DNA from: Promethearchaeota archaeon
Lineage (GTDB): Archaea > Asgardarchaeota > Lokiarchaeia > Sigyniarchaeales > SOKP01
Direction of reading: 5' to 3'
Length of the DNA: 64,000 nt
NCBI GenBank assembly: GCA_016840085.1
Contig: JAEOTA010000004.1
Span: 1-64,000, forward strand
Position numbers and translations under genes: made by a program. Shown piece by piece: positions 4,954-8,105 of this stretch (positions are counted from its first letter, which is position 1; every line of letters begins with the position of its first letter). Below the pieces are notes generated by a model. The model ran no database searches, was not told the origin of the DNA, and saw nothing but the letters and a program-made list of their open reading frames with translations.

Positions 4954-5940
4954 ATGAAAATAGAACTTATTATTTTAGGATCAGCAGCGGCTACCCCTAG
5001 CAAAGAACGAAACTTGAGCTCTATAGCAATGCGGTATAAAAATAAAATCTTATTATTCGATTGCGGAGAAGATTTTCAACGTAGATTCGCTGAAGCTGGG
5101 CTTAAGTTTAATAAACCTCTTTTTATTTTCATATCTCATTTTCATGGAGATCATATACTTGGGCTTCCTGGATTTTTATTCCGTTTGAGTTTAAATGAAA
5201 GAACAGCTCCACTAACGATTTTTGGACCTCGAAACCTCTTTATTTATGTATATCTTCATAAAAAAATACTCGGGTTAAAAGCTAATTATCCGATAAAAAT
5301 TATTGAAATAGACCATCAAAACAGGAAATTAATCGAATTTGAAGGGTTAGATTCTGAAGACCCTAAACACACTTTAGATCTTAATGAAAATATAATATAT
5401 GATTCCAAATATTTTTCAATAAAATATACTCTCGTTGATCATTCTGTAATAACTTATGCTTACGCCTTCATTGAAAAACCTCGCTATGGTAAATTTAATC
5501 CAGATAAAGCGAGAGAATTGGGCATTCCAGAAAGCCGTATTTGGAAAAAATTGCAGGAAGGAGAAATTATTAATTTAAATGGACAAATTATTGATCCTAT
5601 TAAAGAAGGAATAGTTGGACCAAAAAGACCAGGTAGGAAAATAACATATTCAGGAGATTTAAAACCAACTAAAAGTTTAATAGATTTAGGAAAAGATTCA
5701 GACATATTAATACATGAAGCTACATTTTCAAAATTTTTAGCTGAGACTGCAAATGAAAAAAAACATTCTACTTCTGTAGACGCTGCATTAGATGCAAAAA
5801 AAATGAATGCGAAACAACTTATCTTAACGCATATATCAGCAAGATACCAAGAAGATGCTCAAAAATTACTTGAAGAAGCTAAAGAAATATTTCTTAATAC
5901 TGTTTTAGCTGAGGATCTTCTCAAAATTGAGTTGAAATAA
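4954..5940 (+). CDS. rnz: Ribonuclease Z
   Basis: HFHGDH metallo-beta-lactamase motif, DCGE, flexible arm, YSGD, HEATF, HST, THISARY. Confidence 0.95.
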   Translation: MKIELIILGSAAATPSKERNLSSIAMRYKNKILLFDCGEDFQRRFAEAGLKFNKPLFIFISHFHGDHILGLPGFLFRLSLNERTAPLTIFGPRNLFIYVYLHKKILGLKANYPIKIIEIDHQNRKLIEFEGLDSEDPKHTLDLNENIIYDSKYFSIKYTLVDHSVITYAYAFIEKPRYGKFNPDKARELGIPESRIWKKLQEGEIINLNGQIIDPIKEGIVGPKRPGRKITYSGDLKPTKSLIDLGKDSDILIHEATFSKFLAETANEKKHSTSVDAALDAKKMNAKQLILTHISARYQEDAQKLLEEAKEIFLNTVLAEDLLKIELK

Positions 5941-6002
5941 ATCATCCAAGAAATAAATATTTATAAAAAAAGAGAAAAATAAAAATATTTTTTATTTTAG
6001 GG

Positions 6003-6239
6003 TTATCCTCCTGCTATTTCCCCGCTTATCTTTAATTAAGATAAGCTATGGGGAAGGATAACCACTTCACTTTCGCTAGTGATGATGGTCTCTGGCGTGG
6101 CTTTTTTTCCATTTACGAGAATACCAAAATATTTATCTTCCAATTTGAGTTCTTTTAACAAATTAGCTACCGTCATGGTCTTTTCAGGAGTAAATGTTTC
6201 ATATAAGCCTGTCTCTAACAATTCTGAAATTTGTTTTAT
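6003..6239 (-). CDS. Ubiquitin-like ThiS/MoaD/SAMP-family protein, interrupted by an intron: join(6048..6239, 6003..6017)
   Basis: Beta-grasp pattern TVANLLKELKL...ILVNGK...SEVVILPH. The missing IAGG-stop (ATA GCA GGA GGA TAA) lies in frame 30 nt downstream. Probable ATA start at 6239 behind a GGTGG Shine-Dalgarno; the ORF track uses TTG 6221. Confidence 0.88.
6018..6047 (-). other. 30-nt BHB-type mRNA intron
   Basis: Minus strand CCCC-AT^A-GCTTATCTT-AATTA-AAGATAAGC-GGGG-AA^A: 4-bp central helix, two 3-nt bulges, 9-bp intron stem. Cutting after the 2nd nt of each bulge restores P-H-I-A-G-G-stop. Confidence 0.85.
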
Positions 6240-6452
6240 ATTAAACCACCTACAAAATTATTAATTATTATATATAATAATCTTGATCATATTTAATATT
6301 ATTTCCTTAGTCTAATATGTCTTGGATAATCTTAAATTCATAGTTTTTGAAGATTCATTTTCAATTTAGAAATTAACATCACCAAATTTTTTATTTTTAA
6401 TTTAATTTCAATACATAGTTTTTGTTTTTTTCAAAATTGAGGAGATCATACA

Positions 6453-8105
6453 ATTATTGAAGAGGAAGAATTCATAGATTACACAGAATTTTTAGAAAGA
6501 CTTAAAATATCTGAGTCTAATATTAGAAAAATTGATGATCCATTAGAGAGAAACAAATCAATAAAAGAGATTGTTGAAACCTCTATTAATTTTTCAAATG
6601 AGATTGCTCAGTCTGGAGAATTTTTTGAGGCTGGAGAATTTCTATATTCTGCTGCTCATATTATAGAAAGTCTTGACTTTGTCGAAAGTATTAAATTATA
6701 TAATCAAATTATTGAATTTTATAAACAACAAATTATTAATTATAAATTACAAGCTAGATTACATGAAATAGCAGAATTATACTTAAGGATTGCAGATTTA
6801 TATCACGAGAAAATTAAAGATAATCAACTAGAAAAAAAAAATATCCTAAACAGTATAAAATTCCTTAAGCAAGAAAGTAGATTATTAAAAGAGTTTAATG
6901 AAACACGGAAGCTTGCTCAAAATTACCAAAACATTGCCGAATTATATTTGAAATCAGAAGATTTTAAAAATGCTATTAAATTTTTCGGAAAAGTTATTGA
7001 GATTTCAAAATTATACAGTTATTATGATATGCTATCCTTCTCATATCAGCAGATTGGGGCATGTTATGAAGAAATTGATGATTATAACACTTCCCAAGAC
7101 GTAATTTTAGATGGAGTAGAATTTTTCTCAAACTTAGCTACAGAATTAGAGGAAAAAAATGATAATTTAACATTAACACAAATTTATCAAATATTAAAGA
7201 ATCTTCATAAAATTTTGGATGAAGAAGATAAATATATAGCTTTCTCTAAAAAAGAAGCTGGTGCTTATATCGATTTAGCAGAAAGATTAGAAAAAAAAAA
7301 GGAGAATTATCATAAGATCGCAAGATATTATCGTGGTGCAGGTTTGTGCTATAAGGATATAAAAAATAATTTAATCGAATGTGCTTCTTGTTTTATATTA
7401 GCAGGTAACTTTTCAGAAAAAATAAACGATTTACACCAAGCTGCTATAAACTTTTTTGACGGAGCCAACATGTTTAAGGAATTGAATAATCTTGAAATGA
7501 CTTATAAACATTTTATTAAAGCAGGAGACAACTTTTGGAGAATGGGAAGTATAAATGAATCCACCGAAAGTTATTTAAATGCATATGATATTGCTGTTGA
7601 AGGAGGATTAGAATTTAATAGTTATGGAATATTCAATCAAATTGTTAGAGGATTAAACAAAATCGCCGAAGAAGGCTTAAAAAATAAACAGTTTTATACA
7701 GCAGCTTCTCTTATCTTAGAAAGTATAAAATTTTATGAACAATTGGATACAGCAAAAGATTTTCTATTAAGAGAAATGGTCAATAATCTTTATCGCTATT
7801 ACTATAGAGCAGCAAATCTAAAGAAAATTGGATATTCTCATCTAGTTCAGAGCTATGTTTTAGCTTCGATATCATGCATTTTAAATGGTAAATTGGATAA
7901 AGCATGGAAAGTAATCTCGGAGATTAAACCTGAAGGAATAACTGTTAAAAAATACATCGAAATGATAAAAATCATGATTGAAAGAGTTTCTGATGGAAAA
8001 GAAGTAGAACTAAATAATTTTTCTTATGATTTAAGAAGATTAATTGAAAGCTCTGAAGAAATTATGTTTCTTTTAAAATTATTTAAAGGCTTTAAAATAA
8101 AATAG
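6453..8105 (+). CDS. Alpha-solenoid (TPR / alpha-SNAP-like repeat) protein, ~550 aa
   Basis: The frame of ORF 6948..8105 stays open 165 codons upstream to ATT at 6453 behind GAGGAG. Helical repeats such as ARYYRGAGLCY, ASCFILAGNFS, YKHFIKAGDNF. Confidence 0.75.
   Translation: MIEEEEFIDYTEFLERLKISESNIRKIDDPLERNKSIKEIVETSINFSNEIAQSGEFFEAGEFLYSAAHIIESLDFVESIKLYNQIIEFYKQQIINYKLQARLHEIAELYLRIADLYHEKIKDNQLEKKNILNSIKFLKQESRLLKEFNETRKLAQNYQNIAELYLKSEDFKNAIKFFGKVIEISKLYSYYDMLSFSYQQIGACYEEIDDYNTSQDVILDGVEFFSNLATELEEKNDNLTLTQIYQILKNLHKILDEEDKYIAFSKKEAGAYIDLAERLEKKKENYHKIARYYRGAGLCYKDIKNNLIECASCFILAGNFSEKINDLHQAAINFFDGANMFKELNNLEMTYKHFIKAGDNFWRMGSINESTESYLNAYDIAVEGGLEFNSYGIFNQIVRGLNKIAEEGLKNKQFYTAASLILESIKFYEQLDTAKDFLLREMVNNLYRYYYRAANLKKIGYSHLVQSYVLASISCILNGKLDKAWKVISEIKPEGITVKKYIEMIKIMIERVSDGKEVELNNFSYDLRRLIESSEEIMFLLKLFKGFKIK

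What the first reader, a model, noticed from the sequence alone, without database searches (positions are those of the whole stretch)
6003..6062. tRNA-type (BHB) intron in the mRNA of a ubiquitin-like gene controls whether the C-terminal Gly-Gly is made
Seen: the minus-strand ThiS/MoaD/SAMP-like ORF ends ...VVILPH-SLS* and lacks the diglycine. The DNA reads CTT CCC CAT [AGCTTATCTTAATTAAAGATAAGCGGGGAA] ATA GCA GGA GGA TAA. The 30-nt insert (6018-6047) folds as a 9-bp hairpin on a CCCC/GGGG 4-bp helix flanked by 3-nt bulges AT^A and AA^A. The exons add a 10-bp outer helix (GGTTATCCTT/GAGGATAACC) after a short loop, i.e. a relaxed BHB. Cutting after the second bulge nucleotide on each strand gives exactly LPHIAGG*. 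Established: this is the cleavage rule of the archaeal splicing endonuclease EndA, with RtcB ligation; the C-terminal GG is required for E1 activation, sulfur transfer and conjugation; the archaeal mRNA intron I know well is the one in crenarchaeal cbf5. Inference: an Asgard protein-coding gene needs endonuclease/ligase splicing. Because the unspliced form stops inside the intron, splicing could act as an on/off switch, conceptually like HAC1/XBP1 non-spliceosomal splicing. Pipelines would miscall this as a truncated gene.
Basis: partly seen in the sequence, partly recalled or inferred. Interest (0 to 1): 0.96.

Follow-up and report, generated by a model that had tools for sequence, protein, structure and literature searches.

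The report
tRNA-type intron in Asgard ubiquitin-like gene
A small ubiquitin-like gene of an Asgard archaeon is interrupted just before its essential Gly-Gly end by a real 30-base intron of the kind archaea normally cut out of tRNAs; it is one of several such mRNA introns in this genome and comes and goes between close relatives, so it looks like a tolerated passenger that must be spliced out, not a dedicated on/off switch.

Summary
Observation confirmed. The insert (6047-6018, minus strand) forms a 4-bp central helix, a 3-nt bulge and a 9-bp intron stem (fold z = -6.9). Cutting by the EndA rule gives a 68-aa ThiS/SAMP-like protein ending IAGG. Among 117 orthologous loci, 100 read straight through to IAGG and 17 carry a 30- or 32-nt insert at exactly this site. 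All 9 intron-stem pairs and 1 central pair show compensatory changes, exon 2 varies only synonymously, and an independent assembly has the same insert. The genus encodes a two-subunit EndA with the broad-specificity loop, and this genome has RtcB; its assembly lacks the EndA alpha locus. No spliced RNA was seen. The switch idea is unsupported. The intron is scattered on the gene tree (12 changes for 14 alleles) and absent from the nearest sister species. It is one of at least 8 similar 30-31-nt introns seen here, including rps3, cdhC, E1 and E2. Intron and flanks look horizontally exchanged. Papers searched give cbf5 as the only archaeal coding-region case. This scan noted the same intron, and many others, on other DNA before.

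The parts
6246..6251 (-). Shine-Dalgarno-like AGGTGG upstream of the probable ATA start
   Evidence: a similar motif precedes the aligned start codon in 76 of 86 orthologues; function inferred
6048..6239 (-). Exon 1 of a ThiS/MoaD/SAMP-like ubiquitin-fold gene (probable ATA start at 6239; ends Leu-Pro-His)
   Evidence: Pfam ThiS PF02597 E 4.7e-6, above cut-off; found in 49 of 54 genomes of the genus, single copy in all but G026
6018..6047 (-). 30-nt BHB-type (HBh') intron; in-frame TAA at 6038-6036
   Evidence: absent from 100 of 117 orthologous loci
6003..6017 (-). Exon 2: Ile-Ala-Gly-Gly-stop
   Evidence: codon positions 1-2 invariant and position 3 variable in 13 intron alleles
6054..6063 (-). 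5' arm of the 10-bp exon-exon outer helix
   Evidence: 8-10 of 10 pairs in intron alleles versus a mean of about 6 in intronless alleles
6050..6053 (-). Central helix H, exon strand (CCCC)
   Evidence: 100% of cells paired, with a C-G to U-A double change in 4 of 13 alleles
6047..6049 (-). 3-nt bulge holding the 5' cut (after 6048)
6024..6046 (-). Intron stem h' (9 bp, 6046-6038 with 6032-6024) and 5-nt loop
   Evidence: all 9 pairs have changes on both sides; 94.9% of cells paired
6020..6023 (-). Central helix H, intron strand (GGGG)
6011..6019 (-). 9-nt loop holding the 3' cut (after 6018)
   Evidence: makes the motif relaxed rather than strict
6001..6010 (-). 3' arm of the outer helix (Gly-Gly-stop codons and the start of the 3' UTR)
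4954..5940 (+). Convergent neighbour, RNase Z-like gene (context only; linked in 65 of 117 loci, 6 of 17 intron loci)

Best explanation
A genuine protein-spliced (EndA/RtcB) intron in a coding mRNA. Shown: the structure, its conservation by compensatory change, the exact match of the predicted cuts to the intronless orthologues, and coding selection on exon 2. Inferred: the two-subunit, broad-specificity tRNA-splicing endonuclease cuts the pre-mRNA after the second base of the 3-nt bulge and of the 9-nt loop. RtcB then joins the exons, and translation gives a 68-aa ubiquitin-fold protein with a free Gly-Gly for activation by the MoeB/UbaA-like E1. Unspliced RNA stops in the intron loop and gives a dead, GG-less peptide. 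Splicing is therefore obligatory but most likely constitutive: the intron is one member of a genome-wide class of about 30-nt mRNA introns that persist because the tRNA machinery removes them. Less certain (about 0.6): the intron moves between lineages as a short DNA patch (intron plus about 15-20 flanking bases each side) by homologous recombination, rather than being ancestral and lost many times.
For: 17 of 117 loci carry an insert at the identical site and 100 read through. Covariation in 13 alleles: 93.6% of cells paired, 13 of 23 pairs with double changes, 0 of 500 shuffles as high, slid controls 44-54% paired. Two alleles are 32 nt, so frame is restored only by excision. Exon 2 changes only at third positions. 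The outer helix goes with the intron in 5.7 of 6 independent pairs, sign test median p 0.03. EndA alpha with catalytic His/Lys and an N-terminal insert resembling the crenarchaeal-specific loop is present in relatives; most of 54 genomes have two EndA-family genes. Asgard EndA is reported as (alpha-beta)2 with that loop (PMC5829648). RtcB is present, and this genome's tRNAs carry non-canonical introns of similar size. Motif-free comparison with G022: 6 of 7 stop-containing coding inserts are 30-31 nt. Mobility: this intron is 91% identical to that of L195 although third codon positions are only 34% identical; the best flank match is another intron allele for 15 of 17 alleles, while the best 5'-part match is intronless for 12 of 16. 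A single clade of intron alleles is rejected, AU p 3e-10.
Against: No spliced read, circle or peptide has been seen. The catalytic EndA alpha gene is not in this assembly; its neighbours, including V-ATPase subunit A, are missing too, which points to a gap but does not prove one. The 3' site is a 9-nt loop, not a 3-nt bulge. Similar flanks among intron alleles are partly forced by the outer helix, and the tree rests on only 150-170 columns, so mobility is not proven.
Confidence: 0.88

Rival explanations
1. Regulated splicing switch: the cell tunes removal of this intron to switch sulfur transfer or conjugation on and off, like HAC1/XBP1. A variant: alleles are gated either by splicing or by protease removal of a residue after Gly-Gly.
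For: All 14 distinct introns keep an in-frame stop although its codon and position change; a shuffled intron has one about 59% of the time, but the alleles are not independent. Free Gly-Gly ends: 10 of 14 intron alleles versus 16 of 94 intronless. The relaxed motif could be cut slowly. E1 and E2 of this genome also have introns. A regulatory role was proposed for cbf5 (PMC2738675).
Against: The intron is absent from 85% of loci and from the nearest sisters, and is scattered on the tree. 16 intronless alleles end in a free Gly-Gly with no gate, and 4 intron alleles are also capped. The intron/free-GG link is not significant in independent pairs (median p 0.125), and is expected anyway because the tail is physically linked and the Gly-Gly-stop codons form the outer helix. 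A stop-containing E2 intron was seen in only 2 of 97 E2 matches, and in none of the other Ubl-intron genomes. EndA is an essential housekeeping enzyme.
Confidence: 0.1
2. Translational recoding: stop readthrough or ribosome hopping across the hairpin makes a Gly-Gly end without splicing.
For: The 30-nt insert is in frame, so readthrough of one TAA would reach Gly-Gly.
Against: 32-nt alleles (L170, L195) break the frame. Some alleles have two stops, and stops vary among TAA, TGA and TAG. The insert's codons are not conserved while its pairs are. There is no matching take-off/landing codon pair, and the geometry fits the EndA rule exactly.
Confidence: 0.03
3. An unspliced hairpin insertion that inactivated the gene (pseudogene), or an assembly error.
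For: No RNA evidence. Two paralogues with intact Gly-Gly exist.
Against: Identical insert in an independent assembly. 14 diverged alleles keep the structure and the coding pattern of exon 2. The gene is single-copy in nearly all genomes. The same insert type interrupts essential rps3.
Confidence: 0.03

Closest known systems
cbf5 pre-mRNA intron of Desulfurococcales/Sulfolobales (Watanabe 2002; Yoshinari 2006; Yokobori 2009, PMC2738675)
   Same: Short intron inside a coding sequence with a BHB-like, often relaxed, motif; cut by a heteromeric EndA.
   Different: cbf5 is one gene, gained once and lost twice, and experimentally confirmed. This one is in an Asgard lineage and a different gene, is scattered among close relatives, is one of many per genome, and is unconfirmed.
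Non-canonical tRNA introns of Asgard archaea (bioRxiv 10.64898/2026.10.13.758758)
   Same: Same enzymes, motif classes (HBh' is scored canonical there), size range and repeated gains; route of arrival left open.
   Different: That preprint covers tRNA genes only: the word mRNA does not occur in its main text.
Haloferax HVO_1309 5' UTR BHB intron (PMC7714728)
   Same: An EndA substrate in an mRNA.
   Different: It lies in the 5' UTR and does not break a reading frame.
HAC1/XBP1 non-spliceosomal splicing (own knowledge)
   Same: Protein nuclease plus tRNA-type ligase on an mRNA, changing the C-terminus.
   Different: Uses the stress-activated nuclease Ire1 and a conserved site. No dedicated nuclease or conservation across the clade is seen here.
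ThiS/MoaD/SAMP small ubiquitin-fold proteins (host gene)
   Same: Pfam ThiS above cut-off, about 68 aa, Gly-Gly end after splicing.
   Different: Below the SAMP2, MoaD and ThiS equivalog cut-offs; best match is PRK06437. Most orthologues carry one residue after Gly-Gly.

Membership tests
Archaeal BHB (EndA/RtcB) intron | 4-bp central helix between exon and intron 3' end | tested here: met
   100% of cells paired in 13 alleles, with a compensatory change
Archaeal BHB (EndA/RtcB) intron | 3-nt bulge at the 5' site closed by an intron helix h' | tested here: met
   weaker in the 32-nt alleles
Strict hBHBh' subclass | 3-nt bulge at the 3' site closed directly by an exon helix | tested here: not met
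   9-nt loop; the motif is HBh'/BHL
Archaeal BHB (EndA/RtcB) intron | Cuts after the second bulge base regenerate the uninterrupted gene | tested here: met
   matches 100 intronless loci
Archaeal BHB (EndA/RtcB) intron | Broad-specificity EndA encoded | tested here: inconclusive
   alpha and beta in relatives, including G022, G030, G005, G009, G068; this assembly holds only the beta-like subunit, and the alpha locus with its neighbours is missing
Archaeal BHB (EndA/RtcB) intron | RtcB ligase encoded | tested here: met
   E 1e-166
Archaeal BHB (EndA/RtcB) intron | Spliced RNA in vivo or cleavage in vitro | not testable with these tools
   no RNA run could be listed
Self-splicing group I/II intron | Ribozyme core of hundreds of bases | tested here: not met
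   30 nt; no relevant Rfam match
HAC1/XBP1-type regulated intron | Site conserved across the clade | tested here: not met
   17 of 117 loci, scattered
HAC1/XBP1-type regulated intron | Condition-dependent splicing | not testable with these tools
   needs RNA data
ThiS/MoaD/SAMP ubiquitin-fold protein | Profile match and C-terminal Gly-Gly | tested here: met
SAMP2 equivalog | NCBIfam NF041919 cut-off | tested here: not met
   17.4 bits versus 70, on the intronless orthologue L002

The most novel reading that the evidence does not exclude
A Lokiarchaeia-type Asgard genus routinely splices coding mRNAs with its tRNA endonuclease and ligase. About 30-nt introns sit in many genes, including essential ones, and individual introns such as this one spread between species as short recombination patches while keeping a stop codon that disables the unspliced message. 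That would be a whole class of mobile mRNA introns in relatives of eukaryotes. The further step, that this intron is a regulated switch on ubiquitin-like activation, is not excluded but is only about 0.1 likely.
Probability: 0.6. Interest if true: 0.88.

Novelty: new variant of a known kind. Interest (0 to 1): 0.72.

Why it matters
In the papers I could search, cbf5 is the only archaeal coding sequence with a confirmed intron of this kind (PMC2738675, PMC7714728), and the 2026 Asgard intron preprint treats tRNAs only. A well-supported case in an Asgard ubiquitin-fold gene, with more in rps3, E1, E2 and cdhC of the same genome, means Asgard proteomes are mis-annotated as truncated or pseudogenes. 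It also means mRNA splicing by protein enzymes exists in relatives of eukaryotes. The site is a compact test system: 14 natural alleles and intronless sisters allow direct tests of cleavage rules, and of how such introns arrive, which the preprint leaves open.

Tried and rejected
Ab initio genome-wide BHB scan with a frame-restoration filter: no enrichment over shifted-length or wrong-bulge controls. The motif alone is too common, so I used a motif-free comparison with a 1.14-Mb sample of G022 instead; that misses shared introns and gives only a lower bound. No second copy or donor of this intron in the genome: best other match 15 nt. Rfam gave only a chance miRNA hit. The bacterial promoter/terminator scan was uninformative. 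Low-threshold ARAGORN was swamped by noise. Literature searches on Asgard SAMPs and on Promethearchaeum splicing returned nothing; most subscription journals are not searched. Rejected: readthrough, hopping, pseudogene, assembly error, pathway-wide gating with E1/E2, and a functional link to the RNase Z neighbour (present in only 6 of 17 intron loci). No structure or complex prediction was run, as neither bears on the question.

Full report
Observation. The minus strand reads Val-Val-Ile-Leu-Pro-His, then 30 bases (6047-6018) with an in-frame TAA at 6038-6036, then Ile-Ala-Gly-Gly-stop at 6017-6003. The minimum-energy fold is a 10-bp exon-exon helix, a 4-bp central helix, a 3-nt bulge, a 9-bp intron stem with a 5-nt loop, and a 9-nt loop on the 3' side (-35.2 kcal/mol, z -6.94). 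The motif is therefore HBh'/BHL, a class the 2026 Asgard tRNA preprint scores as canonical. An independent Logan assembly carries the same insert, and gene callers there stop at 61 aa. The host protein matches Pfam ThiS above cut-off. Its start is probably ATA at 6239: the aligned codon is ATA in 39, ATG in 21, ATT in 12, GTG in 6 and TTG in 4 orthologues, mostly behind a Shine-Dalgarno-like motif. The spliced product is 68 aa. The Asgard (Lokiarchaeia-type) assignment is my inference from a eukaryote-like E2, the two-subunit EndA, and relatives in LAZR01 contigs, which from memory are the Loki's Castle metagenome.

Comparative test. The gene is found in 49 of 54 genomes of the genus, single-copy in all but G026. 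Over 50 genome loci and 67 metagenome loci, 100 read directly His-Ile-Ala-Gly-Gly and 17 (14 distinct) carry an insert after the same His codon. Fifteen inserts are 30 nt and two are 32 nt. In 13 aligned alleles 93.6% of cells pair and 13 of 23 pairs change on both sides, including all 9 intron-stem pairs and one central pair. No shuffle of 500 reaches this, and slid structures pair 44-54%. Exon 2 is invariant at codon positions 1-2 and variable at position 3, so it is still translated; no allele with an insert had a decayed exon 2. The exon-exon helix has 8-10 of 10 pairs in intron alleles and about 6 in intronless ones, and goes with the intron in 5.7 of 6 independent pairs. The 32-nt alleles and the changing stops exclude readthrough.

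Machinery. Most genomes of the genus have two EndA-family genes. The alpha type keeps the catalytic His and Lys and has an N-terminal insert resembling the crenarchaeal-specific loop, consistent with the report that Asgard EndA is (alpha-beta)2 with that loop (PMC5829648). This assembly holds only the subunit lacking catalytic Tyr/His. The alpha gene's usual neighbours (one in 30 of 30 loci, V-ATPase subunit A in 18) are also missing, and only about 17 tRNA T-arms are found, so I read this as an assembly gap. RtcB is present. Several tRNAs here have 25-33-nt introns at non-canonical positions with the same geometry. A MoeB/UbaA-like E1, JAMM-family genes and two paralogues with intact Gly-Gly are present.

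It is not alone. A motif-free comparison with a 1.14-Mb sample of relative G022 shows an indel peak at 30 nt. Of 27 protein-level insertions, 7 contain stops and 6 of those are 30-31 nt. Five are interpretable: a small-GTPase-like gene (C24), cdhC (C4), a thymidine/AMP-phosphorylase-like gene (C9), and two in rps3 (C85); most show BHB geometry on the coding strand. These gene names rest on motifs I recognised, not on a profile search. Following earlier notes I also confirmed 30-nt stop-containing inserts in the ubiquitin-type E1 and E2. With this one, that makes at least 8 in the genome, a lower bound.

Distribution and origin. On a tree of the 5' part, intron alleles need 12 changes for 14 alleles and are no more clustered than shuffled labels (54 of 500); one clade is rejected for the genome set (AU p 3e-10). 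The nearest sister G076 is 187/200 identical upstream and 777/809 downstream, yet has no intron and shares a capped Gly-Gly-X tail with the next relative G024. The simplest reading is a recent gain here. Intron sequences are more alike (mean 73%) than third codon positions (50%), and this one is 91% identical to an allele whose third positions are 34% identical. Flanks of intron alleles match each other best in 15 of 17 cases, while their 5' parts match intronless alleles best in 12 of 16. This fits exchange of a short patch. The helix constraint and short alignments leave repeated loss of an old intron as an alternative.

Switch or passenger. For a switch: every allele keeps an in-frame stop, and intron alleles tend to end in a free Gly-Gly (10 of 14 versus 16 of 94). 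Against: 85% of loci lack it, ungated and doubly gated alleles both exist, the Gly-Gly link is not significant in independent pairs and is explained by linkage and by the outer helix, the E2 intron appears in only 2 of 97 E2 matches and not in the other Ubl-intron genomes, and the class also sits in housekeeping genes. I put obligatory, constitutive splicing at about 0.88 and a regulated switch at about 0.1.

What is known. cbf5 is the confirmed coding-region case, and other putative cases were predicted without confirmation (PMC2738675); a 5' UTR case exists in Haloferax (PMC7714728). The Asgard preprint finds repeated tRNA intron gains with no general route of arrival and does not mention mRNA. 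It works like the cbf5 intron and meets every sequence-testable feature of a relaxed BHB intron; it is not a strict hBHBh' motif and not a HAC1/XBP1-type element by conservation. Earlier unchecked notes of this scan report the same intron in another genome and many similar ones; I used them as leads only. Verdict: real, a new variant of a known kind, interest 0.72.

Noticed in passing
L053:473-919 (G044) and L051 (G040); G037 has a similar 153-aa frame: In a related family a paralogue of this ubiquitin-fold protein is fused through Gly-Gly to ribosomal protein eS31/S27a (PF01599, E 1e-20), like eukaryotic ubiquitin-S27a but with a ThiS/SAMP-type domain. It implies a protease that cuts after Gly-Gly.
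   Followed up: partly
window 6237-6239 (minus) and orthologues: Probable non-canonical starts: ATA in 39 and ATT in 12 of 86 orthologues at the position where others have ATG/GTG/TTG.
   Followed up: partly
L002, L005, L007-L050 and L161-L229: 78 of 94 distinct intronless alleles have one (rarely two) extra residues after Gly-Gly, of variable identity, so they need proteolytic uncapping; JAMM-family genes are present.
   Followed up: partly
G000 C78:52861-52890 (+) and C78 near 56854 (-): 30-nt stop-containing BHB-like inserts in the ubiquitin-type E2 and in the glycine-rich motif of the E1; a stop inside an E2 match was seen elsewhere only in G062.
   Followed up: yes
G000 C85 near 142161 and 142249 (+), C24 near 30581 (+), C9 near 138239 (-), C4 near 202482 (+): Further 30-31-nt coding inserts absent from G022: two in rps3, and one each in a small-GTPase-like gene, a thymidine/AMP-phosphorylase-like gene and cdhC. 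Another 30-nt difference near C85:141992 was not resolved.
   Followed up: partly
L137 near 15613 and L102 near 15854 (G022): 30-nt inserts present in G022 and absent from this genome; the first has a clear BHB and no stop in its best frame.
   Followed up: no
G000 assembly: Despite 98.8% marker completeness, the EndA alpha locus with V-ATPase subunit A is missing and only about 17 tRNA T-arms are found. C3:3700-11100 is GC-rich and looks like contamination.
   Followed up: partly
L039 and L008 (G026): G026 holds both an intronless copy and an intron copy identical to G005's, probably binning contamination.
   Followed up: no
window 6948-8105 (+): Divergent neighbour with a SNAP-family match (PF14938, E 9e-7), linked to the gene in 68 of 117 loci; its true start is probably upstream of the listed TTG.
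   Followed up: no
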